NCBI GenBank assembly: GCA_003141555.1 | Contig: PLMN01000028.1 | Coordinates: 2,785-66,784, forward strand | Length of the DNA: 64,000 nucleotides | DNA from: Candidatus Aminicenantes bacterium | GTDB taxonomy: Bacteria > Acidobacteriota > Aminicenantia > Aminicenantales > UBA4085 | Reading direction: 5' to 3' | Shown: in pieces, positions 1,374-57,420 of the stretch | Position numbering within the stretch: the stretch's first letter is position 1 | How the letters are laid out: every line of letters starts with the position of its first letter | Notes under the pieces: generated by a model | Seen by the model: only the letters and a program-made list of their open reading frames with translations | Database searches by the model: none | Told to the model about the DNA's origin: nothing | Made by a program: the position numbers and the translations under genes

Positions 1374-1444
1374 TAGTTGACACGACCCATATTTCCCAGA
1401 TAGAAACCAAAAATTGCTATAATATTAGCTGCAAAGGCTGATGA

Positions 1445-1819: not shown

Positions 1820-1863
1820 TCGGTCATATGGGAAATCCCGGTTAAAATATGGAGGATTAAACA

Positions 1864-3327: not shown

Positions 3328-3513
3328 ATCATCGAAGGCTTAATCGAAGACAACCGACTTCACCAATGACGTCATGGACAAAGCGGACTGAATGGAGATC
3401 GAAAGGATATGCTTATTTCCGGCTTTACTTCTATACGCAGCAAGATGAGATATATGATTTAATAGGTCAATTGCTTTTTCGAAGTGATCCGTCGATGACG
3501 AGGATGAATTCAC

Positions 3514-5217: not shown

Positions 5218-5460
5218 ATTGTTAGGGCAATGGTAAGCAGAATTCCCATTGTCTGATCCTCTCGATCGTTTCCCAACTTATTGCCCTGTCAAGTTTTTGG
5301 GGTCCACCTCACAATCCGTGGGCGAAACTTTTGAGCTTCTTCGACCGGCTGGGGTGCTTGAGTTTGCGCAGAGCCTTTAAGTTCTTTTCGGAGACAGATG
5401 AAGGATATGTCTTAATATATTGTTGATTGAGGTTCATTCACTATTTTGGCTTCACTGAAT

Positions 5461-6984: not shown

Positions 6985-7082
6985 GCCGTCCCTGGGAAAG
7001 ACGGCGGGCGCGGGGATTTTATATCAGGCCGCCGCCGTTTTCTTTCCCCGGCTCGGGGCATGCGGCCGATTAAGGCCTCGGC

Positions 7083-16571: not shown

Positions 16572-17117
16572 CTATTTCGTTCCGGCCGGTTTCCCATACT
16601 TGAACAGGTCTCCGGCCCGGAAGATATCATACTGCACGCCGCCCATCGGGTCGAGGGCGAACACCGCCGGCCGGGTAAGGTTCCCCCCCTTTCCCGTCCG
16701 GACGTCGAACCGGACGACGTCGCCGCTCGCGAGCTTCCTCTGCGCGAGCAGGCGGTCGAGATCGAGGATTTTCAGGACGGGCAGGCCCGAATTGACCGCG
16801 TTCCGGAAATAGATCGCCGAATAGGACGGAGCGAGGATCGCCCCGACCTTGAGGGCGATGAAGCAGTCGACGGCTTGCTGGCGCGAGGAGCCCGCGCCGA
16901 AATTGCGGCCGGCGACGATGATGTCGCCCGGCGCGCACTTCCCGGGAAAATCCGTCCAGCCCTCCAGGTTCCCGAAGGCGAGGGGACCCATCTGGGCGAT
17001 ATCGGAGATGGCCAGGTGGGCGTTGTGGAAGATCTGGTCGGTGTCGATGTCCTCGATGATCCGGCCCGCCGCGTCGAGCAGCACCCAGAGCCGGCCTTGG
17101 CGGATGTCGGTGTCCAT
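16572..17117 (-). CDS. leuD: 3-isopropylmalate dehydratase small subunit (LeuD-type, aconitase family), set 1
   Basis: 181 aa. ...DIDTDQIFHNAHL...GDIIVAGRNFGAGSSRQQA... swivel-domain motifs. Immediately downstream of leuC. Confidence 0.8.
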   Translation of the reverse strand: MDTDIRQGRLWVLLDAAGRIIEDIDTDQIFHNAHLAISDIAQMGPLAFGNLEGWTDFPGKCAPGDIIVAGRNFGAGSSRQQAVDCFIALKVGAILAPSYSAIYFRNAVNSGLPVLKILDLDRLLAQRKLASGDVVRFDVRTGKGGNLTRPAVFALDPMGGVQYDIFRAGDLFKYGKPAGTK

Positions 17118-17118
17118 G

Positions 17119-18321
17119 TTACAGGTCCTCCGGACCGCGGATTTCGCCGGCCACGCACGACGCGGCGGCGACCGCCGGGCCGGCCAGATAAGTCTTGCCC
17201 TTGCCCTGCTTACCCGGGAAGTTCCGGTTCCCGGTGCTGATTTGCGTTTCGCCCTTGCCGGTCAGCCCGGCGTGGCCCTCGGCGCAGCCGCCGCAGCCCG
17301 GGTTGATGACGATCGCCCCGCTCCGGAACAGGGTCTCCAGGATGCCGCGCTCGAGGATCTCCTCGTAGACGCGCCGCGTGGCGGGCACCACCTTCAGCAT
17401 AACGCCCGGCTTGACCTTGCGGCCGCGCAGCACCTCGGCCGCCCGGGCGAGGTCCTCGGTCCGGCCGTTGGTGCACGAGCCGATGAAGCCCGAGTCGATC
17501 TTGATGCCCTTGACCCCGGCCAGGGGTTTGACCGTGTTCGGCGAGGGCGGAACCGCGACCTGGGGCGGGAGGCCGGTGACGTCCACCTCGACGACGGCCG
17601 TGTAGGCGGCGCCGAGGTCGGCCGCCAAGCCGCCCTCCCGGGAGACGAAGCCGATGATCCCGGCCATCTCGGTGATCATGCTGCAGAGCGTGATCCGTCC
17701 GGCGGGCGAGAGCGCTTCCGCCGCGGGCCCGGAGAACTCGGCCGAGCGGAGGGCGATCTTCTTCGTCCCGAGCTCCCGGCAGAGGAAGAGAGTCAGGTCT
17801 TTCGCCCCGGCTTGGGCCGAGGGAGTTCCCTTGAGCACGACCTTGACGCTCTCCGGGACTTCGAACCAAGCCCTGCCCGTCTTGAAGGCGAAGGCGATGT
17901 CTACGTCTCCCATCCCCTGCCCGAAGCATTCCACGGCCCCGAGGATGTTGAGGTGGCTGTCCGTGCCGACCACGGTCGTGCCGGGAGCGGCCAGACCTTC
18001 CTCGATCATGACGTGCGAGCCGATGCCCGCGTCCACGTCATATACCCTGATCCCGTGCTTGCGGGCGAAGTCGCGGCAGAGCTGCTGGTTGTCGGCATAC
18101 TTCAGAGAACAGGCCGGCGCGCAGAGGTCGAAGGTGAAGAAAGTCTTGCGAGCGTCGGCCGGCGATTCGCCCGGGTACTCGCGCTCAAAATTCTTGACGA
18201 CATTCGCCCCGCCGAAGTCGCGGGCGGAGCGGACGTCCAGATCCATCCAGACGATCCGGCCGGGCGCGACTTCGTCGGGCGAGTGCGACTGGATGATCTT
18301 TTCGATGATCGTCTTGGCCAC
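17119..18321 (-). CDS. leuC: 3-isopropylmalate dehydratase large subunit (type II/archaeal-type LeuC), set 1
   Basis: About 400 aa from GTG 18321..18319 (VAKTIIEKIIQSHS, matching LeuC N-termini). The listed 532-aa ORF has a 132-aa Arg/Gly-rich artifact extension. Fe-S ligand cysteines present (GSCTNGR). Confidence 0.8.
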   Translation of the reverse strand: MAKTIIEKIIQSHSPDEVAPGRIVWMDLDVRSARDFGGANVVKNFEREYPGESPADARKTFFTFDLCAPACSLKYADNQQLCRDFARKHGIRVYDVDAGIGSHVMIEEGLAAPGTTVVGTDSHLNILGAVECFGQGMGDVDIAFAFKTGRAWFEVPESVKVVLKGTPSAQAGAKDLTLFLCRELGTKKIALRSAEFSGPAAEALSPAGRITLCSMITEMAGIIGFVSREGGLAADLGAAYTAVVEVDVTGLPPQVAVPPSPNTVKPLAGVKGIKIDSGFIGSCTNGRTEDLARAAEVLRGRKVKPGVMLKVVPATRRVYEEILERGILETLFRSGAIVINPGCGGCAEGHAGLTGKGETQISTGNRNFPGKQGKGKTYLAGPAVAAASCVAGEIRGPEDL

Positions 18322-18335
18322 GGCGCGGCCCCCGC

Positions 18336-19451
18336 TTAGAGCTTGGCCGCCACGGCGGCGCCCATGTCGAGCGTCGTGGCGGCGCCGCCCATGTCGTAGG
18401 TCCGGACCTTGCCTTCCTTGATGACCTCGGCTACCGCCCCCTCGAGCGCGCGGGCCTTGTCCTTCTCGCCCAGCCACTCGAGCATCAGGACCGCGGCCAG
18501 GAACGTAGCCAGGGGGTTGACCTTGTAGAGGCCGGCGTATTTGGGGGCGGAGCCGTGGGTCGGCTCGAAGACGGCGTATTTGTCGCCGATGTTGCCCGCC
18601 GAGGCGAAGCCCAACCCGCCCACGAGCTGGGCAGCCAGGTCGGAGATGATGTCGCCGAACAGGTTCTCGGCCACCAGGACGTCGTAGTCCTGGGGGTTCT
18701 TGACGAGCCACATGCACATGGCGTCGATGTTGGCCTCCTTCATGGGGATGTCGGGGAACTGTTTGGCGATCTCGCGCGAAACGCTCAGCATCAGGCCGCC
18801 GGTCTCGCGGAGGACGTTGGGCTTTTCGACGATGGTCACGGACCGGCGCCCGGCCTTGCGGGCGTATTCGAAGGCCGCCCGGACAATGCGCTCGCAGCCC
18901 TTGCGGGTCATGATCCGGGTCGAGAGGGCGATCTCGTTCAGGGGGACATCCTTAAAGGCCTTCATCTTGGGGTGGATCATCAGCGCGTCCTTGACGGACT
19001 GCGGCAGCGGGAAGAATTCGACGCCGGCATACATTCCCTCGGTGTTCTCCCGGAAGATGACCAGGTCGATGTTGTCCCGATAATTCAGGGGATTTCCCGG
19101 ATAAGCCTTGCAGGGTCGGAGATTCGTATAGAGGTCGAACTCCTGGCGGAGTCGGACGATGGGGCTGAAGTAGGACAGGCCCTTGCTCTGGAGCGCGGGG
19201 GCGAGCTCCCGGTCCGCGTCGGCCCTGGGCTTGGATGTGATCGCCCCGAACAGGCAGCAATCGGTCTCCTTCAGGAGCTTGATCGTCCGATCCGGAAGGG
19301 CATTGCCCTCTTTGCACCAATATTGCCAGCCGATATCGCCGTATGTGTACACGGCGTCGACGGACAGCTTCTTGAGGACGGCCATGGCCGCTTCCACCAC
19401 TTCGATTCCGACGCCGTCGCCGGGCAGAACTGCGATCTTGTATTTCGCCAT
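18336..19451 (-). CDS. leuB: Isopropylmalate/isocitrate dehydrogenase-family decarboxylating dehydrogenase (LeuB-like)
   Basis: 371 aa. MAKYKIAVLPGDGVGIEV... and SPIVRLRQEFDLYTNLRP beta-decarboxylating dehydrogenase signature. Exact substrate (3-IPM vs isocitrate/homoisocitrate) cannot be decided from sequence alone. Confidence 0.75.
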   Translation of the reverse strand: MAKYKIAVLPGDGVGIEVVEAAMAVLKKLSVDAVYTYGDIGWQYWCKEGNALPDRTIKLLKETDCCLFGAITSKPRADADRELAPALQSKGLSYFSPIVRLRQEFDLYTNLRPCKAYPGNPLNYRDNIDLVIFRENTEGMYAGVEFFPLPQSVKDALMIHPKMKAFKDVPLNEIALSTRIMTRKGCERIVRAAFEYARKAGRRSVTIVEKPNVLRETGGLMLSVSREIAKQFPDIPMKEANIDAMCMWLVKNPQDYDVLVAENLFGDIISDLAAQLVGGLGFASAGNIGDKYAVFEPTHGSAPKYAGLYKVNPLATFLAAVLMLEWLGEKDKARALEGAVAEVIKEGKVRTYDMGGAATTLDMGAAVAAKL

Positions 19452-19611
19452 GATGGGCTCCTTTTGGTATTGAAAGGGAAGACTATTTTATCCGCAGGGC
19501 CGAGTGCGGTCAACCTTATCTGAGGCTCAAGTTGACATTGCATCATCAGATTATCCGGCATTTCGAGTCACTGAGATAATAGTTCTAAAAATAGCGCTGC
19601 AATTCGTTGAC

Positions 19612-19653
19612 TTGACAAATCCACATCACTGCTCTATCTTCGTAGAGCAGTGA
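19612..19653 (+). promoter_or_regulatory. Putative promoter (TTGACA-N17-TATCTT) overlapping a perfect 11-bp inverted repeat operator TCACTGCTCTA-N5-TAGAGCAGTGA
   Basis: TTGACA at 19612-19617. The palindrome arms at 19627-19637 and 19643-19653 overlap the GTG start of the GntR gene. This is a typical YtrA-type autoregulatory operator. Confidence 0.45.
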
Positions 19654-20078
19654 TTAGATCCAATAAAATTCTGAATTTCAAAGTTGACGCCAAATCGGCT
19701 ATCCCGGCCTACGAGCAGATTAAACGTGCCATCAAACTGGCCATCGTCTCTGGTTACTTGGAGGAAGGAGACCAACTCATGTCTCTCCGGGAGCTCGCCC
19801 TGAAGCTCACCGTCAATCCCAACACTATAATCAAGGTTTATGACCAACTCGAGACAGAGGATTTCATCTATTCCAAGCCGGGGGCAGGCTATTACGTCAA
19901 GGTTGATCACGCCAGAATCCTACCGAGAAGACGCGATCTTTTTCAAGAAATCACTGAGGAATATATTTCGAAAGCTCTGCAACTTGGATACTCCGGCGAA
20001 GACATGTCCAAAGAAATTTCCCAATTAACTGGCGAGAACATGTTGATTCGGGACAGAAAGGATAAATCTGATGATTGA
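19650..20078 (+). CDS. GntR-family transcriptional regulator, YtrA subfamily
   Basis: 142 aa. Winged-HTH SAIPAYEQIKRAIKLAIVSGYLEEGDQLMSLRELALKLTVNPNTIIKVY and a short C-terminus. Sits upstream of an ABC ATPase/permease. Confidence 0.75.
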   Translation: MIRSNKILNFKVDAKSAIPAYEQIKRAIKLAIVSGYLEEGDQLMSLRELALKLTVNPNTIIKVYDQLETEDFIYSKPGAGYYVKVDHARILPRRRDLFQEITEEYISKALQLGYSGEDMSKEISQLTGENMLIRDRKDKSDD

Positions 20079-20895
20079 ATTAGACGAGGTGTCGTTCAAC
20101 TATGGTAAGAAAATGGTCTTTAAAAACTTCAACCTCCGGATACCCCATGGTCAGGTCTGCCTAATTACCGGAATTAATGGTGTGGGGAAAAGCACGTTGT
20201 TGCGATTGATAGCGGGGGTGCTAAGACCGGCTAAAGGAGAGATCCGGTTTGATCCAGATATGGGAGTTGATCCCAGAGCTAAAATAGGGTTCATCTCAGA
20301 TGCCTTGAGCCTTTATGATAGCCTGACGATCACGCAGGCCATCGATTTCCACAAGTCCGTCTATACCCTTCCTTCATTTGATGATTCCTTAATCCGGCAC
20401 ACTAAAATTGGCCGCGACCAGAAGATTAAAGAGTTATCTACAGGACAACGCACCATATTCCACCTGAGCTTAGTTCTTTCCATCGAACCCGAGATTCTGT
20501 TGATCGATGAGATCATCCATTCTATTGATGCCTATTTGCGAAAAATCTTTCTAGAACAGATTGTCCAACTCTTAATAAAACGATCCGTTACCGTAGTCAT
20601 GGTTAACGTTAACTTCCATGATATCGAACACCTGGTGGAAAGGGTGATTCTGTTGAAGTCCGGTAAGATCGCTGTTGATGAAAAAATTGAAGAGCTCAAG
20701 ACCAAGATCAAGAAGATCATTTCCGGGAACCGCCCGGAATTCATGAATATTCTCTCACAAATCGATTATTCAGACCATTCAGAGTTTTACGTATACCCCT
20801 ATATGGACGATCTCAAAGAGAAAATCGACGGCGAAATTGTTGATCTGAATTTAACGGAGATCGTTTCGGCCTTCATCGGAGGCGAATATGCTTAA
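20071..20895 (+). CDS. ABC transporter ATP-binding protein
   Basis: Walker A GINGVGKSTLL, degenerate signature LSTGQRT, Walker B LLIDEI. Low GC. Confidence 0.8.
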   Translation: MIELDEVSFNYGKKMVFKNFNLRIPHGQVCLITGINGVGKSTLLRLIAGVLRPAKGEIRFDPDMGVDPRAKIGFISDALSLYDSLTITQAIDFHKSVYTLPSFDDSLIRHTKIGRDQKIKELSTGQRTIFHLSLVLSIEPEILLIDEIIHSIDAYLRKIFLEQIVQLLIKRSVTVVMVNVNFHDIEHLVERVILLKSGKIAVDEKIEELKTKIKKIISGNRPEFMNILSQIDYSDHSEFYVYPYMDDLKEKIDGEIVDLNLTEIVSAFIGGEYA

Positions 20896-21616
20896 GAAGG
20901 AATGCTTCGAGGCCATAAAGAAACTCCTCGAATCACTGCTTATCTTGGTTGTTATTCCCCTGGCGATTGTATGGGACAAGCTCGTTGCCCATAGCGGCTG
21001 GCCGTATGCGGATGTTTTCCAAGCAGGATGTATTGCGACACTGGTCATCTATGCCATTTATGCAGGGGCGACGATATTTCAGCCCGAGAGAAAAGATAAG
21101 GCATTTGAATATTTGTTTTCATTACCGCTGACCCGCTCTCGAATCGTTATGGCGAAGGTGTTGCCGCGATTCGTCATTCTCGAGATGCTTTTTCTGCTTT
21201 CGGTGGTACTCATCGGGCCTGGGGTTCTGGCCTCTGGAATAATTTTCATCTTACTTTTCTTTGGGGCCGTTTCTCTAAGCATCGCGGTAAACTCCGTCAT
21301 TCTTAATCTTATCGGAGTATCCTTTATATTTGGCGCTTTCCAGCCGTGCTGTAATATTATGTCCTTTCTTCTTGGGAAGCTCGGCGTGAATTTTCCCAAC
21401 GATTTAGCTTTCATATGCGTACAGATATGCGCTGCGTTGATCCTATTAGTTCCTTTATGGTTGGCGTTCTGGCTGACATTTAAGAAACTGGATGTCAGGC
21501 CCATAAGGCTACAGATGAATACTTACTATTTCATTCTATTACCGAGCTTGGCCGGTCTCGTCGCTTTCATCCTTTTATTTTACAGAAAAGCCATGTATTG
21601 GATCATGGCCCGATAA
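20888..21616 (+). CDS. ABC-2-type permease / polytopic membrane protein
   Basis: 242 aa, about 6 hydrophobic segments, translationally coupled to the ATPase. No soluble domains. Confidence 0.5.
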   Translation: MLKKECFEAIKKLLESLLILVVIPLAIVWDKLVAHSGWPYADVFQAGCIATLVIYAIYAGATIFQPERKDKAFEYLFSLPLTRSRIVMAKVLPRFVILEMLFLLSVVLIGPGVLASGIIFILLFFGAVSLSIAVNSVILNLIGVSFIFGAFQPCCNIMSFLLGKLGVNFPNDLAFICVQICAALILLVPLWLAFWLTFKKLDVRPIRLQMNTYYFILLPSLAGLVAFILLFYRKAMYWIMAR

Positions 21617-21631
21617 GTGATCATTAAGAAA

Positions 21632-21889
21632 TCAGCGATAGACTTTCCCCCGCGGCCGGATCCGGATGACGAGGACAATCAATTCCCGGTCGGAAAACGT
21701 GTAGATGACCCGATAATCGCCGCTTCGAAAACTCCAGAGCAGACCGTCTTTTCCCTTGAGCGGCTTCCCACCGCGAGGATCCGCTAAGAGCTTCTCCCGG
21801 ATTTCCTTAAGGATGCGCCGGGAGACATCCTGCCCGAGTCTTTTGAGGTCCTTCTTGACGCTCTTTTTGAAGAAAAGCCGATAGGTCAT
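21632..21889 (-). CDS. RelE/ParE-family type II toxin
   Basis: 85 aa. MTYRLFFKKSVKKDLKRLGQDVSRRILKEIREKL...DYRVIYTFSDRELIVLVIRIRPRGKVY is the typical RelE/ParE fold signature. Confidence 0.75.
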   Translation of the reverse strand: MTYRLFFKKSVKKDLKRLGQDVSRRILKEIREKLLADPRGGKPLKGKDGLLWSFRSGDYRVIYTFSDRELIVLVIRIRPRGKVYR

Positions 21890-22125
21890 CAGATATCCCA
21901 GCCGAGCTCGGCCAGAAATTCCGTCTCGCTAAGGATCTCGTCCTGCGCATCCTTCAGCCGCTCGACGGCGATCTGGTAGTCCGCCCAGGTCTCGAGATAT
22001 ATTTCGAGCGCATCCCGGACGATTTCGTTCGTATTGCGTTTCCGCGCCTCGGCGATTTCCTCGATCGAGGCGACCATTTTCATCGGCAGCCGCGCGGAGA
22101 TGGTCTTGGTCACTTGTTTTCCCAT
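21889..22125 (-). CDS. RHH-type antitoxin (CopG/ParD-like)
   Basis: 78 aa. MGKQVTKTISARLPMKMVASIEEIA... ribbon-helix-helix N-terminus. Overlaps the toxin start by 1 nt. Confidence 0.6.
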   Translation of the reverse strand: MGKQVTKTISARLPMKMVASIEEIAEARKRNTNEIVRDALEIYLETWADYQIAVERLKDAQDEILSETEFLAELGWDI

Positions 22126-22148
22126 GGAGACATCCTTGATTGTTTACA

Positions 22149-22167
22149 TTGTTTGCATTGCAAACAA
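22149..22167 (-). promoter_or_regulatory. Perfect 19-bp palindrome TTGTTTGCA-T-TGCAAACAA upstream of the antitoxin; putative toxin-antitoxin operator
   Basis: Located about 25 nt upstream of the antitoxin start. Preceded by the partial repeat TGTTTACATTG. Confidence 0.4.
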
Positions 22168-22371
22168 TATCCTAGAAAACCGGCTTCGTCAAGGATGTTT
22201 TTATGCGGAAATCGGTGACACGATCCCAATTCAAGAGAATTGGGTCATGTCACCGAATTCCGCAAATCGCCGATTTCACTCCCGTCCTTTCTTAGGTTTC
22301 TCAACCTTAGAAAGGACGCGTGATCATAATGGCAAATCTCAGTAAAGCGCGGAGGCGCGCCCGCCGCCGAC

Positions 22372-22860
22372 CTATTTCTTCTCGAGCTTCTTCTTCGTCC
22401 ATTCGATCAGGCCGCCGGCCTCCAAGATGCCCAGGACCGACGCGGGCAGCGGCGGGAAGCTGAAGACGCGCCCCTTGGCCAGGATCCGGCCGCCGGCGAA
22501 GTCGATCTCGGCCTCGTCGCCCGCCGCGAGCGCGTCCGCCGCCTCCTCGCATTGGATCACGGGCAGGCCGAGGTTGATCGCGTTCCGGAAGTAGATTCGG
22601 GCGAACGACTTGGCCACGACCGCCTGCACGCCCGCCGCACGCAAGCAGGCCGCGGCCTGCTCCCGAGAGCTCCCGCAGCCGAAATTCTTGCCGGCGAGGA
22701 TGATGTCGCCCGGTTTGACGCCTTTGGCGAAAGCCGGGTCGAGGTCCTCGAGGGCCTTGGCCGCCATCTCCTCGGGCTTCAGCTGCTGGTAAGTGTACTT
22801 GCCGGCGTAGATGACGTCGGTGTTGACGTTGTCCCCGTATTTCCAGATCTTGCCTTTCAT
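22372..22860 (-). CDS. LeuD-type aconitase-family small subunit, set 2
   Basis: 162 aa from ATG 22860 (MKGKIWKYGDNVNTDVIYAGKY...GKNFGCGSSREQA). The listed 436-aa ORF is a read-through artifact. ATGA overlap with the upstream LeuC-type gene. Confidence 0.8.
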   Translation of the reverse strand: MKGKIWKYGDNVNTDVIYAGKYTYQQLKPEEMAAKALEDLDPAFAKGVKPGDIILAGKNFGCGSSREQAAACLRAAGVQAVVAKSFARIYFRNAINLGLPVIQCEEAADALAAGDEAEIDFAGGRILAKGRVFSFPPLPASVLGILEAGGLIEWTKKKLEKK

Positions 22861-24113
22861 CGCACGTAGCTCCTGGGGTCGGTGATCTTTCCCTCGATGG
22901 CGGAGGCCGCGACCGTAGCCGGCGAAGCGAGGTAAATCTCGGAGTCTCGGCCGCCCATCCGCCCCTTGAAATTGCGGTTGGACGTGCCGACCACGATTTC
23001 TCCCGGCGCAAGGATGCCCTCGTGCGCGCCCAGGCACGGGCCGCATCCGGGATTGACCATCACGCAGTTGGCTTCGAGGAAGATCTCGATCAGGCCCTTG
23101 CGCACGGCCGCGAGATAGACTTCGCGCGAGGCCGGCAGGACGAGCGTCCGGATATTGGGATGGACCTTGCGGCCCTTGAGGATCGCGGCCGCGACCTCGA
23201 GGTCCTCGAGCCGTCCGTTGGTGCACGTCCCGATCAAGGCCTGGTGGAAGGGCTTGCCGGCCACGGCCGACACGGGCTTGACGTTGTCGACCGAATGAGG
23301 GCAGGCGATCATGGGCTCGAGCGCCGAGAGGTCGTATTTCAGCACGGCCTCGTAGGCCGCATCGGGATCCGATTTCAGGACGACATAGGGTCCCTTCGCC
23401 CGCTCCTTGAGCCAGGCGAGCGTCTTGTCGTCGACCTCGAAGTACCCGTTCTTGGCGCCCATTTCGGCGGCCATATTGCATAGGACCATGCGCGAGGCGA
23501 GGCTGAACTCCCCCGCCGCCGGCCCGGCGAACTCCACCGCTTCGTAGTTCGCCCGGTCCGCGCCTTGGTCGCCCAAAATCTTGAGGATCGCGTCCTTGGC
23601 GTAGACCCCGGCCGGGAACCGGCCGCTGAACTCGATCCGGAGCGTCTCGGGCACGCGCAGCCAGATTTCGTCCGTGGCCCACAGGCTGGCCGTCTCGGTC
23701 CGGCCGATGCCGGCGGAGAACGCTCCGAAGGCGCCGTAGGTGGTGGTGTGGGAGTCGCTGCCCATGATCACCGCGCCCGGCAGGGCAAAACTCGCCTCGG
23801 AGAAGACCTGGTGGCAGACCCCGGCGTGGATGTCGAAGAAGTGCGGAATCCTCTGCTCCGCCACGAACTCCCGGATCGTCTTGTGGTTCTGGGCGTACTT
23901 CTCGTCGGCCGCCGGGACGATATGGTCCAGGACAATGACGATCTTCTGCGGCGCGACGACTTTCTTCAGGCCCAGCTTCTTGAACTCGCCGATGATAGCC
24001 GAGGAGTTGTCGTGGGACAGATAGTAGTCCGGCGAGACGGTGATCACCTCGCCCGCCCGCACCGGCCGGCCGGCCTTGCGGCCCAGCGCTTTCTCCGAGA
24101 ATGTCAAACCCAT
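22857..24113 (-). CDS. LeuC-type aconitase-family large subunit (type II), set 2
   Basis: 418 aa. MGLTFSEKALGRKAGRPVRAGEVITVSPDYYLSHD..., Fe-S ligands GTCTNGR and MGSDSHTTTYGAFGAF. Paralog of set 1. Confidence 0.85.
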   Translation of the reverse strand: MGLTFSEKALGRKAGRPVRAGEVITVSPDYYLSHDNSSAIIGEFKKLGLKKVVAPQKIVIVLDHIVPAADEKYAQNHKTIREFVAEQRIPHFFDIHAGVCHQVFSEASFALPGAVIMGSDSHTTTYGAFGAFSAGIGRTETASLWATDEIWLRVPETLRIEFSGRFPAGVYAKDAILKILGDQGADRANYEAVEFAGPAAGEFSLASRMVLCNMAAEMGAKNGYFEVDDKTLAWLKERAKGPYVVLKSDPDAAYEAVLKYDLSALEPMIACPHSVDNVKPVSAVAGKPFHQALIGTCTNGRLEDLEVAAAILKGRKVHPNIRTLVLPASREVYLAAVRKGLIEIFLEANCVMVNPGCGPCLGAHEGILAPGEIVVGTSNRNFKGRMGGRDSEIYLASPATVAASAIEGKITDPRSYVR

Positions 24114-24126: not shown

Positions 24127-24669
24127 TTATTCCTTGAAGATGTCGAAGTTGACGAAGTCGGCGTGGTTGATGATGATCGCCTCGATCGTCCGCTTCAGCC
24201 CGTCGCCCTCCTTGGAGTGGGCGGCGATCATATGAACGACGTCCTGGGGCAGGTCGTATTTGTAGGCGAAGGCCGCGCCCGAGATGGGGTGGCGCAGCAG
24301 CTCGCCCTCGCGGCTCTTTTGGAAGACCCCCTGCTCGCGCTTGAACTCGAAGAGCTTGCCCACGTCGTGGAGGATCGCCCCCGACAGGAGCAAATCGCGC
24401 TGGATCGCGATCTTCCCGGCGTAGGACGTGCCCAACGCCTCGGCGATCTGGAGCGCCGTCCGGGTGACGGCCCGGGTGTGGTCAATGAGGCTGATGTCGG
24501 TCTTCTTGATGAGCAGGGTGAAGGGCATCTTCTCCAGATCCGCGGCCGTCCAGCCTCCCTTGCGGGCGGCTTCGACCCAGACCGTCAGCGTCTGTTCGCG
24601 GAGCTTGGCGTCGCCGATCAGCCCGATCTCGGGAATGAGCTTCAGAAATTCGTCCCGCTCGTCCTTCAT
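24127..24669 (-). CDS. HD-domain metal-dependent phosphohydrolase-like protein
   Basis: 180 aa. H..HD..D pattern (IDHTRAV, ILHDVGK, INHAD). Embedded in the operon between the CS-like gene and the LeuC-type gene. Confidence 0.6.
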   Translation of the reverse strand: MKDERDEFLKLIPEIGLIGDAKLREQTLTVWVEAARKGGWTAADLEKMPFTLLIKKTDISLIDHTRAVTRTALQIAEALGTSYAGKIAIQRDLLLSGAILHDVGKLFEFKREQGVFQKSREGELLRHPISGAAFAYKYDLPQDVVHMIAAHSKEGDGLKRTIEAIIINHADFVNFDIFKE

Positions 24670-25445
24670 GGCAGCTTCCTTTCGGGAGGACCGTCGTATT
24701 CGAAATCCTCCGGGTCGATTTTGCGCATGGGCTTCATCCGCGTCTTCTCCTCGTGGACATGGGCCACCAGGCCCGGCACGCGGGAGATGATAAAGAAGGC
24801 GTTCCCGATCTCGGGCGGGATGCCGAGGTCGCAGAGGAGGGCGGCGATCGCCCCGTCGACGTTGATCGGCAGCGTCTTGCCGCCGGCCTGCTCGGCCAGG
24901 GCGGCTTCCACCCCGCGTGCGATCCGGACGAACCGGCCGGACAAATGGAGCTCCTCGGCCAGGGCGAACAGCTTGGCCGTGCGTGGATCCCGAGTGTGGA
25001 TCCTGTGGCCGAAGCCCGAGGCGCGCTTGCCCTTGGCCTTCATCTCGTCGAGCACGGCCTTGATGGCCGCGGGCTCGCCGGCCGCCTCCGGGGCGCGCTT
25101 GGCGATCTCGAGGAACAGGCGCTGGCCGTCCTCGATAGCCCCGCCGTGGAAGCGGTTGATGGCCAGGACGCCGGCCGCGACCGCCGCGTTGAGCTCGGCC
25201 CCGGTCGAAGCGACCGTCCGGGCGGCGAGCACGGACGGAGGGCTCGCCCCGTGGTCGATCGACGAGACGAAGATGGCATCGACGAGCCGTCCGACTTCGG
25301 CCGAGGGAAATTCCCCCTTAAGAGCGAGGTAGATGGCCTGGGCGAAGGAGATCCTGCCCATCAAATCGGCGATGGGGTAGCCGCGCAGGACGATCCTGTT
25401 CGGCTTGATCTCCGTGATCCCGGTCTTCCATTTTTCTTCGGGCAT
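24666..25445 (-). CDS. Small citrate-synthase-family protein, citryl-CoA lyase (CCL)/ATP-citrate-lyase C-domain-like
   Basis: 259 aa. SIDHGASPPSVLAARTVASTG (DHG active-site region as in ACL/CCL) and GFGHRIHTRDPR (citrate-synthase His-Arg signature region). The short, stand-alone form matches CCL rather than a full citrate synthase. Confidence 0.7.
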   Translation of the reverse strand: MPEEKWKTGITEIKPNRIVLRGYPIADLMGRISFAQAIYLALKGEFPSAEVGRLVDAIFVSSIDHGASPPSVLAARTVASTGAELNAAVAAGVLAINRFHGGAIEDGQRLFLEIAKRAPEAAGEPAAIKAVLDEMKAKGKRASGFGHRIHTRDPRTAKLFALAEELHLSGRFVRIARGVEAALAEQAGGKTLPINVDGAIAALLCDLGIPPEIGNAFFIISRVPGLVAHVHEEKTRMKPMRKIDPEDFEYDGPPERKLP

Positions 25446-25458: not shown

Positions 25459-26352
25459 CTATTTCAGAATTTCCGCCGCTTTCGCCGGGATGTCGGCGAT
25501 CGCCTCGACGACATGCACGCCGACGTCGCGGAGCCGTGCGACCTTGCCGGCGTACGATCCGCGTCCTCCCTCGACGATCGCCCCGGCATGCGAGAAGCGC
25601 GTCCCCGACTTGGCTGCCTTGCCGCCGATATAGGCGATGAGCGGCTTGGTGAACTTCCCCGCGGCGATGAGATCAGCCACCCTCTCCTCCTGGGTCGTGC
25701 CGATCTCGCCGAACATGACCGCCGCCCGGGTCTGGTCGTCGCGCTCGAAAAGCTCCATGATTTCGGGATGGGACAGGCCGACGACGGCGTCCCCCCCGAC
25801 GTGGACGATGGTGCTCTGGCCGAAGCCGGCCCGGGTCAGGTAGTAGGAGATGGCCGAGGTCATCCCCCCGCTGCGGGAGCTGACGCCCAGGACGCCAGGC
25901 TTGAACCATTCCCGGGCGCGCTGGGCTCGGCCGCCGATCATGCCCAAGACCGCCTTCCCGGGGCTGAGCAGCCCAAGGGTGTTCGGGCCGACGAACCGCG
26001 CCCCCGTTTCGCGCGCCGCGCGGGCGATCTCGAGGACGTCGTAGATGGGAACCCGGTCGGGGACGATGACCAGCAGCTTGACGCCGGCGGCGATCGCCTC
26101 GAGCGCGGCGTTCTTGACGAGCGTCGCGGGGATGAAGATGACGCTGATGTCGATCGGGCCCCGCTTCTCGCGGGCCTCTTCGACGGAATCGTAGACCGGT
26201 ACGCCATAGACATCCTGGCCGCCGCGGCCCGGCGTCACGCCGGCCACGACGTTGGTCCCGTAGTCCTTCATGAGCTGGGTCCGGGCCATGCCTTCGCGGC
26301 CCGTGATCCCCTGGATGACGACCCTGGATTTTTCGTCGACGAGGATGGACAT
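25459..26352 (-). CDS. Succinyl-CoA synthetase alpha (SucD)-like CoA-binding subunit; putative citryl-CoA synthetase small subunit
   Basis: 297 aa from ATG 26352 (MSILVDEKSRVVIQGITGREG...VAGVTPGRGG), collinear with SucD. Phosphohistidine region present. Start lies 4 nt after the upstream gene stop. Confidence 0.8.
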   Translation of the reverse strand: MSILVDEKSRVVIQGITGREGMARTQLMKDYGTNVVAGVTPGRGGQDVYGVPVYDSVEEAREKRGPIDISVIFIPATLVKNAALEAIAAGVKLLVIVPDRVPIYDVLEIARAARETGARFVGPNTLGLLSPGKAVLGMIGGRAQRAREWFKPGVLGVSSRSGGMTSAISYYLTRAGFGQSTIVHVGGDAVVGLSHPEIMELFERDDQTRAAVMFGEIGTTQEERVADLIAAGKFTKPLIAYIGGKAAKSGTRFSHAGAIVEGGRGSYAGKVARLRDVGVHVVEAIADIPAKAAEILK

Positions 26353-27916: not shown

Positions 27917-27993
27917 CAGGACCTTCCTTGTTGCAGATTCGAGGGCGTGAGAAAAGTCTAGTATACCCAAACGCCGAGGCGAAAAAAAGGGGG

Positions 27994-29025: not shown

Positions 29026-29198
29026 GCGGCGGTGAGGATTTCGGGGCGCATCCAGGATCTCGGCGGCATGGAGTCCTCCTCTCATCCGGACGGCACGATG
29101 GGCGAGGCCGGCCGCTTCATTTATATCACAAAAACGCCGAGAGCGGACCCTCCGAAGGTCTTTGGCCGGGGATCATCGGCGCCCAGGCCGGCGAGACC

Positions 29199-57399: not shown

Positions 57400-57420
57400 G
57401 CGGCCCGAGTTGACGAACGA

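What the first reader, a model, noticed from the sequence alone, without database searches (positions are those of the whole stretch)
16572..24113. Two divergent LeuC/LeuD sets plus one IDH/IPMDH-family dehydrogenase in one chromosomal neighbourhood
Set 1 (leuD1-leuC1) lies directly after the LeuB-like dehydrogenase. Set 2 (leuC2-leuD2) ends the CCS/CCL operon. The two LeuC proteins have clearly different N-termini (VAKTIIEKIIQSHSPDEV.. versus MGLTFSEKALGRKAGRPV..). No leuA-type or nifV-type synthase is present. One set is probably the genuine isopropylmalate isomerase. The other may serve as an aconitase, homoaconitase or methylcitrate/citramalate isomerase. The dehydrogenase could be shared between them.
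Basis: partly seen in the sequence, partly recalled or inferred. Interest (0 to 1): 0.6.

Follow-up and report, generated by a model that had tools for sequence, protein, structure and literature searches.

The report
Citrate-linked module with two aconitase-like enzymes
The two LeuC/LeuD pairs and the dehydrogenase are not a leucine pathway plus a spare copy: they belong to one gene module, conserved across many uncultured anaerobes, that sits next to citrate-making or citrate-splitting enzymes, and one of the pairs is an uncharacterised aconitase-family enzyme with a rebuilt active site.

Summary
The minus strand carries DH (18336-19451), LeuC1 (17119-18321), LeuD1 (16572-17117), LeuC2 (22857-24113) and LeuD2 (22372-22860). 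LeuC2/D2 end a ccsA-ccsB-ccl-HD operon. The pairs are about 36% identical.

The "neighbourhood" is one cluster. In related Aminicenantes contigs all nine genes are contiguous. Here a 2.9 kb low-GC insertion splits them.

Set 2 keeps every aconitase catalytic residue. Set 1 belongs to a separate clade (bootstrap 100). It has Gln72-position Arg, no His101, His147 replaced by Ser/Thr, Asn258 replaced by Ser and Arg452 replaced by Lys, conserved in 120/120 relatives and across phyla.

Two independent samplings gave 55 genome loci and 120 metagenome loci. Both pairs, this DH type (conserved insertion, SPIV loop) and the HD protein recur together. Citrate enzymes of several kinds lie beside them. 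LeuA does not.

The set 2 clade also contains homoaconitases of lysine (AAA) clusters.

Best reading: a non-canonical citrate/isocitrate/2-oxoglutarate segment. Neither pair looks like a genuine isopropylmalate isomerase. Which pair does which step, and what HD does, is inferred only.

The parts
26357..27922 (-). ccsA-like large subunit (SucC/ATP-grasp family, 521 aa) with a C-terminal extension carrying two ferredoxin-like Cys motifs
   Evidence: Pfam ATP-grasp_2 167.6 bits; Citrate_bind 25.7 bits, just under its gathering score. NCBIfam SucC models are below cut-off. Fer4 hits reach only 17-21 bits. Contiguous with the module in L003, L005, L006, L007, L038 and L199.
25459..26352 (-). ccsB-like small subunit (SucD family, 297 aa)
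   Evidence: CoA_binding, Ligase_CoA and Succ_CoA_lig domains. sucCoAalpha scores 291 bits, below the 353 cut-off.
24666..25445 (-). citryl-CoA lyase (CCL, 259 aa)
   Evidence: NCBIfam NF004869 268.5 bits (cut-off 212) and NF004866 261.5 bits (cut-off 245). Full-length match to Hydrogenobacter thermophilus CCL 6hxp, E 1.7e-62; the HGGA, GxGHR..DPR and NVDG motifs are aligned.
24127..24669 (-). HD-domain protein (180 aa), a conserved module member of unknown substrate
   Evidence: Pfam HD 56.4 bits. H64, H101-D102, H127, H146, H151 and D171 are invariant in 22 homologues. It lies directly upstream of the first LeuC of the module in 21 of 55 and 29 of 119 related loci. No PDB sequence match. The AF2 model (pLDDT 84) shows only a generic HD phosphohydrolase fold.
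22857..24113 (-). LeuC2: aconitase-family large subunit with the canonical active site, in the (homo)aconitase-type 'YTY' clade
   Evidence: PRK00402 554 bits and hacA_fam 527.8 bits are above the subfamily cut-offs. The IPMI, HacA and aconitase equivalogs are not reached. 423.8 bits to M. jannaschii IPMI 4nqy and 359 bits to HACN 4kp2. The His at the Gln72 position and the equivalents of D100-H101, H147, D165-S166-H167, N258, E262, 3 Cys, N446, R447 and R452 are all present. Its clade with HCS-linked LeuC has bootstrap 80.
22372..22860 (-). LeuD2: small subunit with GSSR and substrate loop GKYTYQQL
   Evidence: LEUD_arch 183 bits (cut-off 109); equivalogs not reached. Loop aligned against YLVY (MJ1277), YLRT (MJ1271) and YNLT (PH1724). 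The x-T-Y loop is conserved across phyla in module copies.
22283..22318 (.). 16-nt-arm hairpin just downstream of the LeuD2 stop; possible terminator of the ccs-leuD2 unit
   Evidence: Inverted repeat I5, 94% complementary, 4-nt loop. Not tested further.
19452..22371 (.). Low-GC insertion that splits the cluster. It holds RHH antitoxin 21889-22125 (-), ParE toxin 21632-21889 (-), ABC-2 permease 20888-21616 (+), ABC ATPase 20071-20895 (+) and GntR regulator 19650-20078 (+)
   Evidence: GC 0.39-0.51 against 0.62-0.70 in the flanks. Pfam hits. Absent at this junction in L003 (13-nt gap) and L006 (175-nt gap). No flanking direct repeats found.
18336..19451 (-). Module-type beta-decarboxylating dehydrogenase (371 aa), on the IDH/HICDH branch, with a conserved 15-residue insertion and an S-P-I-V substrate loop
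   Evidence: Iso_dh 307.7 bits. All NCBIfam equivalogs are below cut-off; the best are AksF2 345/540, LEU3_arch 326/410 and IDH PRK08997 314/510. Best PDB hits are NAD-IDH 6lky (246 bits) and Thermus HICDH (235 bits). The equivalents of R119, R129, R153, Y160, K230, D283, D307 and D311 are aligned. The insertion and SPIV are conserved across phyla.
17119..18321 (-). LeuC1: large subunit of a distinct, uncharacterised aconitase-family clade with a remodelled active site
   Evidence: Below all NCBIfam cut-offs (383.3/385). R34 sits at the Gln72 position, L66 at His101, S102-H103 at His147, L124 at Thr168, S214 at Asn258 and K371 at Arg452. The Cys ligands, D121-S122-H123, E218 and N365-R366 are kept. 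The signature is present in 120/120 homologues and in distant clusters and phyla. Clade bootstrap 100.
16572..17117 (-). LeuD1: small subunit partner of LeuC1. GSSR is kept; the loop is HNAHLAIS (clade consensus HNRYLAIT)
   Evidence: LEUD_arch 95.8 bits, below the 108.95 cut-off. Loop alignment; clade-wide loops. Fused to LeuC1 in many lineages (about 600 aa).

Best explanation
The five genes of the finding, together with ccsA, ccsB, ccl and the HD gene, form one conserved module: ccsA-ccsB-ccl-HD-leuC2-leuD2-DH-leuC1-leuD1. In this window a recently acquired low-GC insertion cuts it in two.

The module most likely runs the tricarboxylate segment citrate <-> cis-aconitate <-> isocitrate <-> 2-oxoglutarate + CO2, using non-canonical enzymes.
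- CCS/CCL makes or cleaves citrate via citryl-CoA.
- The two LeuC/LeuD-type [4Fe-4S] hydro-lyases carry out the citrate/isocitrate isomerisation.
- The Iso_dh-family enzyme does the oxidative decarboxylation or reductive carboxylation.

Set 2 has a canonical catalytic apparatus and belongs to a (homo)aconitase-type clade. Set 1 is a new subfamily that has lost the His101 general acid, His147, Asn258 and Arg452 and gained an Arg at the Gln72 position.

My preferred sub-model is a split isomerase. Set 1 would do the citrate <-> cis-aconitate half and set 2 the cis-aconitate <-> isocitrate half. This would parallel PrpD or AcnD plus AcnB in the methylcitrate cycle, and Aco2 plus Lys4 in fungal lysine synthesis.

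Neither pair is a dedicated isopropylmalate isomerase.

Shown: gene content, active-site differences, clade structure, conserved synteny and the link to citrate enzymes. Inferred: the substrates, the division of labour between the pairs, the direction of flux and the role of HD.
For: 1. One cluster. The nine genes are contiguous and co-directional in L003 (13 nt between leuD2 and DH), L006, L148, L161, L187 and L194. The leuD2/DH junction carries different inserts in the window, L005 and L007.

2. Sampling by set-1 LeuC (55 genome loci; Aminicenantes, Anaerolineae, Bacteroidota, Planctomycetota, Thermoplasmatota, Marinimicrobia, TA06, Acidobacteriota and others). A canonical-type LeuC is also present in 25, module-type DH in 20, HD in 21 and citrate-lyase-type genes in 14. 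Unsupervised clustering of all neighbouring ORFs found no other recurrent family.

3. Independent sampling by the LeuD2 loop (120 metagenome loci). By ORF clustering, DH is in 54 loci, HD in 27, CCL in 13, CitDE in 11 and CitF in 9. By tblastn and motif classification, set-1 LeuC is in 20 loci and any citrate-lyase-type gene in 28.

4. Different citrate enzymes sit beside the module in different lineages: CCS+CCL; CitF+CCL; a CitD-CitE fusion plus CitF (Pfam CitF 441-459 bits); and a full-length citrate synthase.

5. CCL passes the NCBIfam citryl-CoA lyase cut-offs and matches the H. thermophilus CCL structure 6hxp over its full length at E 1.7e-62.

6. Set 2 keeps all aconitase catalytic and binding residues. 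The set 1 substitutions are invariant in 120/120 homologues and across phyla, so a distinct function is under selection.

7. LeuC2 clusters (bootstrap 80) with LeuC genes that lie next to homocitrate synthase (TIGR02146 equivalog passed) and LysX/LysY/LysK-like genes. These are tricarboxylate-acting homoaconitases. The cluster lies apart from M. jannaschii IPMI and from LeuC genes next to LeuB.

8. In L010 and L038 the gene order ccsA-ccsB-ccl-HD-leuC1-leuD1-leuC2-leuD2-DH follows the proposed reaction order.

9. In L111, L169 and L173 a PrpD/MmgE-family gene sits directly after DH or leuD2. This is where leuC1-leuD1 sits in Aminicenantes.

10. Precedent: Dehalococcoides mccartyi has a biochemically confirmed IDH in an operon with an 'aconitase large subunit' and an 'aconitase small subunit' (PMC4720418 supplement).
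Against: - No enzyme of the module has been assayed. Everything about substrates rests on context and residues.
- The DH keeps the equivalent of E. coli IDH Ser113 but has Ile at Asn115. It has Val at the position of Thermus HICDH Arg85. From the literature as I recall it, the R85V mutant loses isocitrate activity.
- The same S-P-I-[VL] loop occurs in the predicted homoisocitrate dehydrogenases of AAA clusters.
- Neither LeuD loop has the Arg seen in the methanogen homoaconitase loop (YLRT).
- Set 2 scores higher against M. jannaschii IPMI than against its HACN.
- A canonical-site enzyme such as set 2 could in principle do both half-reactions, which would leave set 1 unexplained.
- Each pair also occurs without the other nearby. 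Examples are L096 and L153 (leuC2-leuD2-DH-tsaB), Bacteroidales (DH-HD-leuC1D1) and Thermoplasmatota (CitF-CCL-leuC1D1). This fits isozymes as well as a split enzyme.
- L192 has a module-type DH next to LysX and homocitrate synthase.
- The trees are NJ only. Many loci are short MAG or metagenome contigs.
- I could not inspect whole genomes for acnA/acnB/icd/leuABCD.
Confidence: 0.5

Rival explanations
1. Two rounds of 2-oxoacid chain extension or shortening. One pair is an aconitase (citrate/isocitrate) and the other a homoaconitase (homocitrate/homoisocitrate). A single bifunctional isocitrate/homoisocitrate dehydrogenase and a promiscuous lyase or ligase link oxaloacetate, 2-oxoglutarate and 2-oxoadipate, for lysine synthesis or breakdown.
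For: - The LeuC2 clade contains LeuC genes of AAA-lysine clusters that lie next to homocitrate synthase.
- The DH loop SPIV resembles SPIL in the predicted homoisocitrate dehydrogenases.
- The best NCBIfam hit of the DH is a homoisocitrate dehydrogenase model, and Thermus HICDH is a top PDB hit.
- L192 joins a module-type DH to LysX-HCS.
- One DH per two hydro-lyase pairs is what this model predicts.
Against: - Homocitrate synthase is absent from the window and from nearly all module loci (5 of 119).
- The module has only one condensing or cleaving system, and it is of citrate type.
- No LysW-pathway genes recur next to the module.
- HCS-linked clusters contain no set-1 pair.
Confidence: 0.17
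2. Two aconitase isozymes. Both pairs catalyse the full citrate/isocitrate isomerisation. They differ in stability, regulation or kinetics, as AcnA and AcnB do in E. coli.
For: Each pair is found with DH, HD and citrate enzymes in the absence of the other nearby. Both keep the Fe-S ligands and the GSSR catalytic serine motif.
Against: The pairs are usually adjacent and tightly spaced or overlapping in one operon (L018, L022, L029), which is unusual for alternative isozymes. Set 1 lacks the His101 general acid and three further active-site residues of aconitase, so an identical reaction is doubtful.
Confidence: 0.13
3. Set 2 (or set 1) is the organism's genuine isopropylmalate/citramalate isomerase for leucine or isoleucine synthesis. 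The other pair is an aconitase-like enzyme. The DH doubles as LeuB.
For: - LeuC2/LeuD2 are most similar among solved structures to M. jannaschii isopropylmalate/citramalate isomerase (423.8 and 162.5 bits).
- The DH pocket is hydrophobic at two positions, Ile and Val.
- NCBI annotates LeuC2 homologues as 3-isopropylmalate dehydratase.
Against: - IPMI equivalog cut-offs are not reached (457/610.65 and 173.7/245.85).
- No LeuA in the window or beside the module in 175 loci.
- The LeuC2 clade groups with homocitrate-synthase-linked genes, not with M. jannaschii IPMI or LeuB-linked LeuC.
- The LeuD2 loop x-T-Y differs from YLVY.
Confidence: 0.1
4. The module acts on another 2-substituted malate, for example citramalate formed from pyruvate plus acetyl-CoA by CCL-type or CitE-type enzymes. 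Alternatively, set 1 plus HD performs chemistry that is not a hydro-lyase step at all.
For: - From general knowledge, citramalate lyase is a CitDEF-like complex.
- The LeuD1 and DH loops are hydrophobic.
- Set 1 lacks the usual acid catalyst.
- The HD partner has no known role in aconitase chemistry.
Against: CCL matches a proven citryl-CoA lyase over its full length at E 1.7e-62, and the oxaloacetate-binding motifs align. A full-length citrate synthase replaces it in L029. No glutamate mutase or methylaspartase genes recur nearby.
Confidence: 0.1

Closest known systems
Methanocaldococcus jannaschii isopropylmalate/citramalate isomerase (MJ0499/MJ1277; PDB 4nqy, 3vba)
   Same: Same two-subunit archaeal-type LeuC/LeuD architecture. 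It is the best solved-structure match for both pairs. Set 2 shares all catalytic residues.
   Different: - The small-subunit loop is YLVY there, against YTYQQL (set 2) and HLAIS (set 1).
- Neither pair reaches the IPMI equivalog scores.
- Set 1 has six active-site substitutions.
- The genomic partners here are citrate enzymes, not LeuA/LeuB.
Homoaconitases: M. jannaschii HacA/HacB (4kp2, 2pkp) and the LeuC/LeuD genes of bacterial AAA-lysine clusters (Thermus LysT/LysU type)
   Same: LeuC2 passes the hacA_fam subfamily cut-off. It clusters with homocitrate-synthase-linked LeuC genes that share the x-T-Y loop. From the literature as I recall it, Thermus homoaconitase performs only the second half-reaction, which is the behaviour proposed here for set 2.
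   Different: The HacA/HacB equivalog scores are not reached, and there is no YLRT Arg. The module lacks homocitrate synthase and sits with citrate enzymes instead. Set 1 is outside this clade.
Aconitases (mitochondrial, AcnA, AcnB; fused PRK07229 type) and the putative two-subunit aconitase next to IDH DET0450 in Dehalococcoides mccartyi
   Same: Same superfamily, the same Fe-S ligands and the same catalytic Ser-Ser-Arg motif. The Dehalococcoides operon (aconitase large subunit, small subunit, validated IDH) has the same logic as leuC2-leuD2-DH.
   Different: - All aconitase models score far below cut-off.
- Set 1 lacks His101, His147, Asn258 and Arg452.
- The Dehalococcoides IDH keeps the classical substrate residues, whereas the DH here does not.
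- I could not obtain the Dehalococcoides subunit sequences to compare them.
Two-enzyme isomerisations: PrpD or AcnD/PrpF plus AcnB (methylcitrate cycle); Aco2 plus Lys4 (fungal lysine pathway)
   Same: The dehydration and rehydration halves are split between two enzymes. A PrpD-family gene occupies the position of leuC1-leuD1 in three loci. There are three components (set 1, HD, set 2), as with AcnD/PrpF/AcnB.
   Different: The resemblance is by analogy only. No activity data exist, and HD is unrelated to PrpF. What these systems do is taken from my knowledge of the literature and was not tested here.
Thermus thermophilus homoisocitrate dehydrogenase (1x0l, 3asj) and homodimeric NAD-IDH (6lky, 6ltf)
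   Same: They are the best structural-sequence matches to the DH (235-246 bits). All catalytic Arg/Tyr/Lys/Asp residues align.
   Different: The DH has Val where Thermus has Arg85 and Ile where IDHs have Asn115. It also carries a 15-residue insertion (SKPK...KG) and a second insertion of about 19 residues that are conserved in the module type only.
Hydrogenobacter thermophilus citryl-CoA synthetase / citryl-CoA lyase (CCS/CCL; 6hxp)
   Same: CCL is a clear family member (cut-offs passed; full-length match at E 1.7e-62). The gene trio ccsA-ccsB-ccl is the same.
   Different: The host lineages are mostly described as fermentative heterotrophs, not rTCA autotrophs (Aminicenantes in PMC5459899). 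ccsA carries an extra C-terminal Cys-rich ferredoxin-like tail. The operon continues into HD and LeuCD-type genes.

Membership tests
3-isopropylmalate isomerase (LeuC/LeuD, archaeal type) | Reaches the curated equivalog score (TIGR02083 LEU2 610.65; TIGR02084 leud 245.85) | tested here: not met
   LeuC2 457.0, LeuC1 294.6; LeuD2 173.7, LeuD1 76.0.
3-isopropylmalate isomerase (LeuC/LeuD, archaeal type) | Genomic association with leuA and leuB in a leucine operon | tested here: not met
   No LeuA-type gene in the window. None recurs in 55 + 120 related loci. The only LeuA-family neighbours are homocitrate synthases.
3-isopropylmalate isomerase (LeuC/LeuD, archaeal type) | Hydrophobic small-subunit substrate loop of the YLVY type | tested here: not met
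   LeuD2 has YTYQQL and LeuD1 has HLAIS, against YLVY in MJ1277. LeuB-linked LeuD genes show varied Y-L-x-x loops, so this rule is weak.
Aconitase (aconitate hydratase) | Full set of catalytic and binding residues (pig numbering): D100-H101, H147, D165-S166-H167, N258, E262, C358/C421/C424, N446-R447, R452, S642-S643-R644 | tested here: inconclusive
   Set 2 has all of those present in a large/small-subunit enzyme. Set 1 lacks H101 (Leu), H147 (Ser, with His shifted by one), N258 (Ser) and R452 (Lys), and has Arg at Q72.
Aconitase (aconitate hydratase) | Reaches a curated aconitase model score (PRK07229 612; TIGR01342 719; AcnA/AcnB models) | tested here: not met
   LeuC2 320.9 and 271.6; LeuC1 220.5 and 186.1.
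Aconitase (aconitate hydratase) | Converts citrate to isocitrate | not testable with these tools
   Only contextual support: citrate lyase/synthase systems on one side and an IDH-family DH on the other.
Homoaconitase (HacA/HacB; LysT/LysU) | Family and equivalog scores (hacA_fam 385.7; HacA_Meth 550; HacB 230; PRK14023 229) | tested here: inconclusive
   LeuC2 passes the hacA_fam subfamily cut-off (527.8) but not the equivalog (458.3). LeuD2 scores 169/160 against 230/229. LeuC1 (356.6) and LeuD1 fail all.
Homoaconitase (HacA/HacB; LysT/LysU) | Association with homocitrate synthase and homoisocitrate dehydrogenase | tested here: not met
   No homocitrate synthase in the window. However, LeuC2's clade includes homocitrate-synthase-linked members.
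Isocitrate dehydrogenase | Substrate-loop Ser113 and Asn115 (E. coli numbering), and curated model scores | tested here: not met
   The loop is S-P-I-V: Ser is present, and Asn is replaced by Ile. IDH models score 313.8/510 and lower. The catalytic residues are conserved.
Homoisocitrate dehydrogenase | Curated model scores; Arg85 of the Thermus enzyme | tested here: not met
   AksF2 345.2/540, AksF 301.3/500. Val sits at the Arg85 position. The loop does resemble SPIL in the predicted HICDHs of AAA clusters.
Citryl-CoA lyase | Curated model score and homology to the characterised H. thermophilus enzyme | tested here: met
   NF004869 268.5 (cut-off 212); NF004866 261.5 (cut-off 245). 6hxp E 1.7e-62 over the full length.
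Citryl-CoA synthetase | SucC/SucD-like two-subunit ligase with a citrate-binding domain, encoded next to ccl | tested here: inconclusive
   The domain architecture and adjacency are met. Citrate_bind is only weak (25.7/26.8). No dedicated curated model was hit.

The most novel reading that the evidence does not exclude
Set 1 (LeuC1/LeuD1, often fused, usually preceded by the HD protein) is a new functional class in the aconitase superfamily. It would be a [4Fe-4S] hydro-lyase that works without the His101 general acid and specialises in one half of the citrate/isocitrate (or homocitrate/homoisocitrate) isomerisation. The module would then be a split aconitase operating in many uncultured anaerobic phyla. 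It might also be the kind of enzyme that supplies the first half-reaction that Thermus-type homoaconitases cannot perform.
Probability: 0.3. Interest if true: 0.75.

Novelty: new variant of a known kind. Interest (0 to 1): 0.62.

Why it matters
Annotation pipelines label both pairs as isopropylmalate dehydratase or homoaconitase family, and the dehydrogenase as IPMDH/IDH. Metabolic reconstructions of Aminicenantes, Bacteroidales, Anaerolineae, Thermoplasmatota, Marinimicrobia and others therefore probably credit these organisms with leucine-pathway steps they may not have. The same reconstructions may miss a citrate/2-oxoglutarate link.

If the module is a non-canonical aconitase plus isocitrate dehydrogenase, it fills apparent gaps in the TCA branch of many uncultured anaerobes. 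In lineages where it sits with citrate lyase, it suggests a route from glutamate or 2-oxoglutarate to acetate and oxaloacetate by reductive carboxylation.

The set 1 clade is also a natural experiment in aconitase catalysis. The cluster ligands and catalytic serine are kept, but the classical acid-base histidines are gone.

Tried and rejected
- The small-subunit loop rule (YLVY = IPMI, YLRT = HACN) did not classify either pair. LeuB-linked LeuD genes from archaea and bacteria show many different Y-L-x-x loops.
- The Ser113/Asn115/Arg85 rule for the DH gave an IPMDH/HICDH-like answer that conflicts with the citrate context. I left it as evidence against.
- The three homologous-protein searches returned only close relatives (at least 65-77% identical, named generically), so they gave no functional names.
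A narrower one worked.
- NCBIfam on eight distant set-1 relatives found no equivalog.
- No direct repeats or other mobile-element borders were found around the insertion.
- Eight literature searches found no description of this module or of a two-pair aconitase. Only the Dehalococcoides operon note was useful.
- I considered the methylcitrate cycle. I rejected it because 2-methylisocitrate is a tertiary alcohol that a dehydrogenase cannot oxidise, and no PrpB is present.
- I considered the methylaspartate/citramalate route. I rejected it because no mutase or methylaspartase genes recur.
- I considered phosphonate pathways. I rejected them because no PEP mutase is present.
- I could not test for acnA/acnB/icd/leuA elsewhere in the genomes, because only loci of at most 21 kb are retrievable.

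Full report
**1. Observation**

| Gene | Coordinates | Length |
|---|---|---|
| LeuD1 | 16572-17117 | 181 aa |
| LeuC1 (GTG start, VAKTIIEK...) | 17119-18321 | 400 aa |
| Iso_dh-family dehydrogenase (DH) | 18336-19451 | 371 aa |
| LeuD2 | 22372-22860 | 162 aa |
| LeuC2 (MGLTFSEK...) | 22857-24113 | 418 aa |

Pfam and NCBIfam confirm the families. LeuC2/LeuD2 close a tightly packed run ccsA-ccsB-ccl-HD-leuC2-leuD2 (26357-27922, 25459-26352, 24666-25445, 24127-24669). DH-leuC1-leuD1 is equally compact and is followed by tsaB.

The pairs are only 36% (LeuC) and 35% (LeuD) identical. No LeuA/NifV-type gene and no further aconitase or Iso_dh paralogue occurs anywhere in the window. Close homologues carry names from Candidatus Aminicenantes, and the contig is a 170 kb metagenome assembly.

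**2. One cluster, not a neighbourhood**

In a related 4.28 Mb contig (L003) the nine genes ccsA-ccsB-ccl-HD-leuC2-leuD2-DH-leuC1-leuD1 are contiguous on one strand. Only 13 nt separate leuD2 from DH. L006, L148, L161, L187 and L194 show the same arrangement.

In the window the leuD2/DH junction holds a 2.9 kb segment with GC 0.39-0.51, against 0.62-0.70 in the flanks. It encodes an RHH/ParE toxin-antitoxin pair, an ABC-2 transporter and a GntR regulator.

L005 has a different gene (GFO_IDH_MocA family) at the same junction, and L007 has a 1.5 kb gap there. I found no terminal repeats for the insert.

**3. Family tests**

Scores below are bits against the curated cut-off.

| Protein | Best models |
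|---|---|
| LeuC2 | PRK00402 554/385 and hacA_fam 527.8/385.7 (both passed); IPMI 457/610.65; methanogen HacA 458.3/550; aconitase 320.9/612 |
| LeuC1 | PRK00402 383.3/385 (fails even the subfamily cut-off) |
| LeuD1 | LEUD_arch 95.8/108.95 |
| DH | AksF2 345/540; LEU3_arch 326/410; IDH 314/510; IPMDH 290/393 |
| CCL | citryl-CoA lyase 268.5/212 (passed) |

CCL also gives a full-length match to the H. thermophilus enzyme 6hxp (E 1.7e-62).

Among solved structures both pairs are closest to M. jannaschii IPMI and HACN. Set 2 matches strongly (423.8/359 bits for LeuC2; 162.5/119.3 bits for LeuD2). Set 1 matches weakly and equally to both (242/239 bits; 72/67 bits).

**4. Active sites**

I mapped LeuC residues onto pig mitochondrial aconitase through the printed alignments.

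LeuC2 and 120 homologues have His at the Gln72 position, as MJ0499 and MJ1003 do. They keep the equivalents of D100-H101, H147, D165-S166-H167, N258, E262, the three Cys ligands, N446, R447 and R452.

LeuC1 and all 120 of its homologues differ at six positions:
- Arg at the Gln72 position (A-R-D)
- Leu at H101 (F-D-L)
- Ser/Thr at H147, with a His one residue later (G-S-H)
- Leu/Met at T168
- Ser at N258
- Lys at R452 (N-R-N-F-x-G-K-Q-G)

They keep the Cys ligands, D-S-H, E262 and N446-R447. LeuD1 keeps G-S-S-R.

The same signature appears in about twenty 50%-identity clusters out of 1.84 billion representatives, several of them LeuC-LeuD fusions of 600-640 aa. It also appears in sequences from a dozen phyla. 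At the H101 position the clade has Leu, Cys, Tyr or Thr but never His.

This is a selected, distinct active site and not decay. No NCBIfam equivalog covers the clade.

**5. Small-subunit loops**

At the loop that reads YLVY in MJ1277 (IPMI), YLRT in MJ1271 (HACN) and YNLT in PH1724:
- LeuD2 has YTYQQL, one residue longer.
- LeuD1 has HLAIS.

Across phyla the module's LeuD2 copies keep x-T-Y. LeuD1 copies read HN[RA][YH]L[AHT][IV]T. LeuD genes next to LeuB-like genes show assorted Y-L-x-x loops.

**6. Comparative genomics, sampling A**

A scan of one genome per GTDB species with a set-1 LeuC alignment returned loci from many lineages:
- Aminicenantes
- Anaerolineae
- many Bacteroidales and other Bacteroidota
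- Planctomycetota
- Thermoplasmatota, including Aciduliprofundum
- Marinimicrobia
- TA06 and Zixibacteria
- Fibrobacterota, Fermentibacterota, Krumholzibacteriota, Eisenbacteria and Calditrichota
- Acidobacteriota

All are MAGs. No cultured species appeared among hits of at least 45% identity.

tblastn synteny and motif classification gave these counts in 55 loci.

| Feature | Loci |
|---|---|
| Canonical-type LeuC also present | 25 |
| Module-type DH | 20 |
| HD | 21 |
| Citrate-lyase-type genes | 14 |

Typical orders are:
- DH-HD-leuC1-leuD1-leuC2-leuD2 (L022, L039, L045)
- ccsA-ccsB-ccl-HD-leuC1-leuD1-leuC2-leuD2-DH (L010, L038)
- DH-HD-leuC1D1 alone (several Bacteroidales)
- CitF-ccl-leuC1D1 (Thermoplasmatota L024, L027)

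All-against-all clustering of every ORF in these loci found no other family shared by more than a few lineages.

The citrate enzymes were confirmed by Pfam. CitF scored 441-459 bits. The CitD-CitE fusions showed ACP plus HpcH_HpaI domains. L029 has a full-length citrate synthase followed by SucCD-like genes.

**7. Comparative genomics, sampling B**

Sampling A forces set 1 to be present. I therefore sampled independently with a degenerate DNA pattern for the LeuD2 loop (N-T-D-x-x-[FY]-[PA]-G-[KR]-Y-T-Y) in metagenome contigs, which gave 120 loci.

Clustering and tblastn found the following.

| Feature | Loci |
|---|---|
| DH | 54 |
| HD | 27-29 |
| CCL | 13-15 |
| CitDE | 11 |
| CitF | 9 |
| Any citrate-lyase-type gene | 28 |
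| Set-1 LeuC (including an I-G-Q-H subtype) | 20 |
| PrpD/MmgE-family gene | 4 |
| Gamma-carbonic-anhydrase/PaaY-like gene | 7 |
| LeuA-family gene | 4-5 |

All the LeuA-family genes pass the equivalog cut-off for homocitrate synthase TIGR02146 (440-486 bits against 413.55). They sit with LysX-, LysY- and LysK-like genes, that is, in alpha-aminoadipate lysine clusters.

Set 2 with DH, HD and citrate enzymes also occurs without set 1 nearby. Examples are L169 (CitDE-CitF-HD-leuC2-leuD2-DH-PrpD-like), L199, and L096 and L153 (leuC2-leuD2-DH-tsaB).

One module copy, L112, comes from a human gut metagenome.

**8. Phylogeny**

I built NJ trees of LeuC sequences and ran a 100-replicate bootstrap on 69 taxa and 408 columns.

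| Grouping | Bootstrap |
|---|---|
| Set 1 monophyletic | 100 |
| Module LeuC2 plus homocitrate-synthase-linked LeuC | 80 |
| Homocitrate-synthase-linked subclade, nested inside | 99 |

M. jannaschii IPMI and HACN, and the LeuC genes adjacent to LeuB-like genes, fall outside the second grouping.

Set 2 therefore belongs to a clade whose members with interpretable context act on tricarboxylates. These are NJ trees on context-labelled metagenome sequences, so I treat them as indicative.

**9. The dehydrogenase**

All catalytic residues align. Its best relatives among solved structures are homodimeric NAD-IDHs and Thermus homoisocitrate dehydrogenase.

Its substrate loop is Y-F-S-P-I-V-R-L-R. Ser lies at the E. 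coli Ser113 position, Ile at Asn115 and Val at Thermus Arg85.

The DH type that travels with the module is about 370 aa. It carries a conserved insertion (I-T-S-K-P-K-x-x-A-x-x-E-L-x-P-x-L-x-x-K-G-x-x-Y-x-S-P-I-V) in every phylum examined.

The DH next to homocitrate synthase is a different, shorter type of about 335 aa with G-Y-R-S-P-I-L, about 40% identical. L192 is an exception: a module-type DH follows LysX-HCS-leuC2...leuD2.

The loop therefore looks more like a homoisocitrate or isopropylmalate pocket than a classical isocitrate pocket. This is the main evidence against my reading. The conserved Lys-rich insertion could supply the missing carboxylate contacts, but that is speculation.

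**10. The HD protein**

It has the full H...HD...H...H...D metal-binding pattern. Only about 1,900 homologues exist at E <= 1e-5, all named generically, and there is no PDB sequence match. A confident model (pLDDT 84) resembles only generic HD phosphohydrolases.

It always lies directly upstream of whichever LeuC comes first in the module. It is part of the system, but its role is unknown.

**11. Interpretation**

*Shown:*
- One conserved module.
- Two distinct, module-specific hydro-lyase clades, one with a remodelled active site.
- A module-specific DH type.
- Repeated juxtaposition with non-homologous citrate-forming or citrate-cleaving systems.
- Absence of LeuA.

*Inferred:*
- The module carries citrate <-> isocitrate <-> 2-oxoglutarate.
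- I favour a split isomerisation, with set 1 handling citrate/cis-aconitate and set 2 handling cis-aconitate/isocitrate. The reasons are as follows. The pairs are usually adjacent and translationally coupled. Gene order in L010 and L038 matches that reaction order. A PrpD-family gene replaces set 1 positionally in three loci. From the literature as I recall it, close relatives of set 2 (Thermus-type homoaconitases) perform only the second half-reaction.
- Direction probably differs by lineage: cleavage where CitDEF is the partner, synthesis where citrate synthase is, and either way with CCS/CCL as in this window.

The alternatives remain open and are scored in the rival explanations:
- two chain lengths, with a shared bifunctional DH
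- isozymes
- other substrates

**12. Comparison with what is known**

The components belong to known superfamilies. A two-subunit putative aconitase next to a validated IDH has been noted in Dehalococcoides (PMC4720418).

I found no description of three things:
- the set-1 clade
- the paired architecture with HD
- the module-type DH

I therefore class it as a new variant of a known kind.

**13. Limits**

- There are no activity data.
- I could not inspect whole genomes.
- Many contigs are short.
- Bin labels are sometimes doubtful. L008 is labelled 'Eubacteriales' and L009 'Thermotogaceae', yet both are syntenic with Aminicenantes and 57-65% identical.
- Statements about Thermus homoaconitase, the Thermus HICDH R85V mutant, PrpD/AcnD/AcnB and fungal Aco2/Lys4 rest on my knowledge of the literature, not on tool results.

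Noticed in passing
window 19452-22371: A 2.9 kb low-GC (0.39-0.51) insert lies between leuD2 and DH. It carries an RHH/ParE toxin-antitoxin pair, an ABC-2 permease, an ABC ATPase and a GntR regulator. The same junction carries other inserts in relatives (a GFO_IDH_MocA gene in L005, a 1.5 kb gap in L007), so it looks like an insertion hotspot. No terminal repeats were found.
   Followed up: partly
window 26357-26680 (C-terminus of ccsA): The CCS large subunit has a tail of about 80 residues with two ferredoxin-like Cys motifs (CxxCxxxxCxxxCP and CxxCxxCxxxC). Pfam Fer4 hits reach only 17-21 bits. The long form (515-526 aa) is kept in L003, L005, L006, L038 and L199. An Fe-S domain on a citryl-CoA synthetase is unexpected.
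   Followed up: partly
window 27994-29085 (-) and 29199-30209 (+): Directly upstream of ccsA lies a URO-D/MtaA-CmuA-like methyltransferase homologue (below NCBIfam cut-offs). Beyond it, diverging, is an MFS/POT-family transporter. An MFS gene also flanks ccsA in L003.
   Followed up: no
L024 231-2495; L027 1-2249: In Thermoplasmatota a CitF (citrate CoA-transferase alpha subunit) gene is followed directly by a CCL gene and then the fused leuC1-leuD1. No CitD or CitE is present. This could be an ACP-independent citrate lyase built from CitF plus CCL.
   Followed up: partly
L111 1832-3208; L169 4142-5515; L173 3224-4597: A PrpD/MmgE-family gene (weak hits to 2-methylcitrate dehydratase models, far below cut-off) sits directly after DH or leuD2 in module copies that lack set 1.
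   Followed up: partly
L136 3993-4502; L038 14790-15365; five further loci, cluster 15: A gamma-carbonic-anhydrase/PaaY/CaiE-like hexapeptide-repeat gene follows leuD2 or DH in several module copies. It could relate to CO2 supply or to CoA-thioester hydrolysis.
   Followed up: no
L112 (human gut metagenome contig, 1044-9353): A complete module HD-leuC1'-leuD1'-leuC2-leuD2-DH-CitDE-CitF occurs in a human gut metagenome assembly. It has the I-G-Q-H subtype of set 1 and a DH loop S-A-I-L.
   Followed up: partly
L192 5261-12142: A module-type DH (66% identical to the window's) and a YTY-type leuC/leuD lie next to LysX and a homocitrate synthase. About 1.3 kb of unrelated ORFs separates leuC from leuD. 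This is a possible bridge between the citrate module and lysine AAA clusters.
   Followed up: partly
L008, L009: These contigs are labelled 'uncultured Eubacteriales' and 'uncultured Thermotogaceae'. They carry Aminicenantes-like synteny (leuC1-leuD1-tsaB; leuD2-DH-leuC1) at 57-65% identity, so the bin taxonomy may be wrong.
   Followed up: no
window 1-6000 and 52000-64000: GC drops to 0.53-0.57, and to 0.445 at 62-64 kb, against about 0.65-0.69 in the middle of the window. Further foreign or differently composed segments may be present.
   Followed up: no
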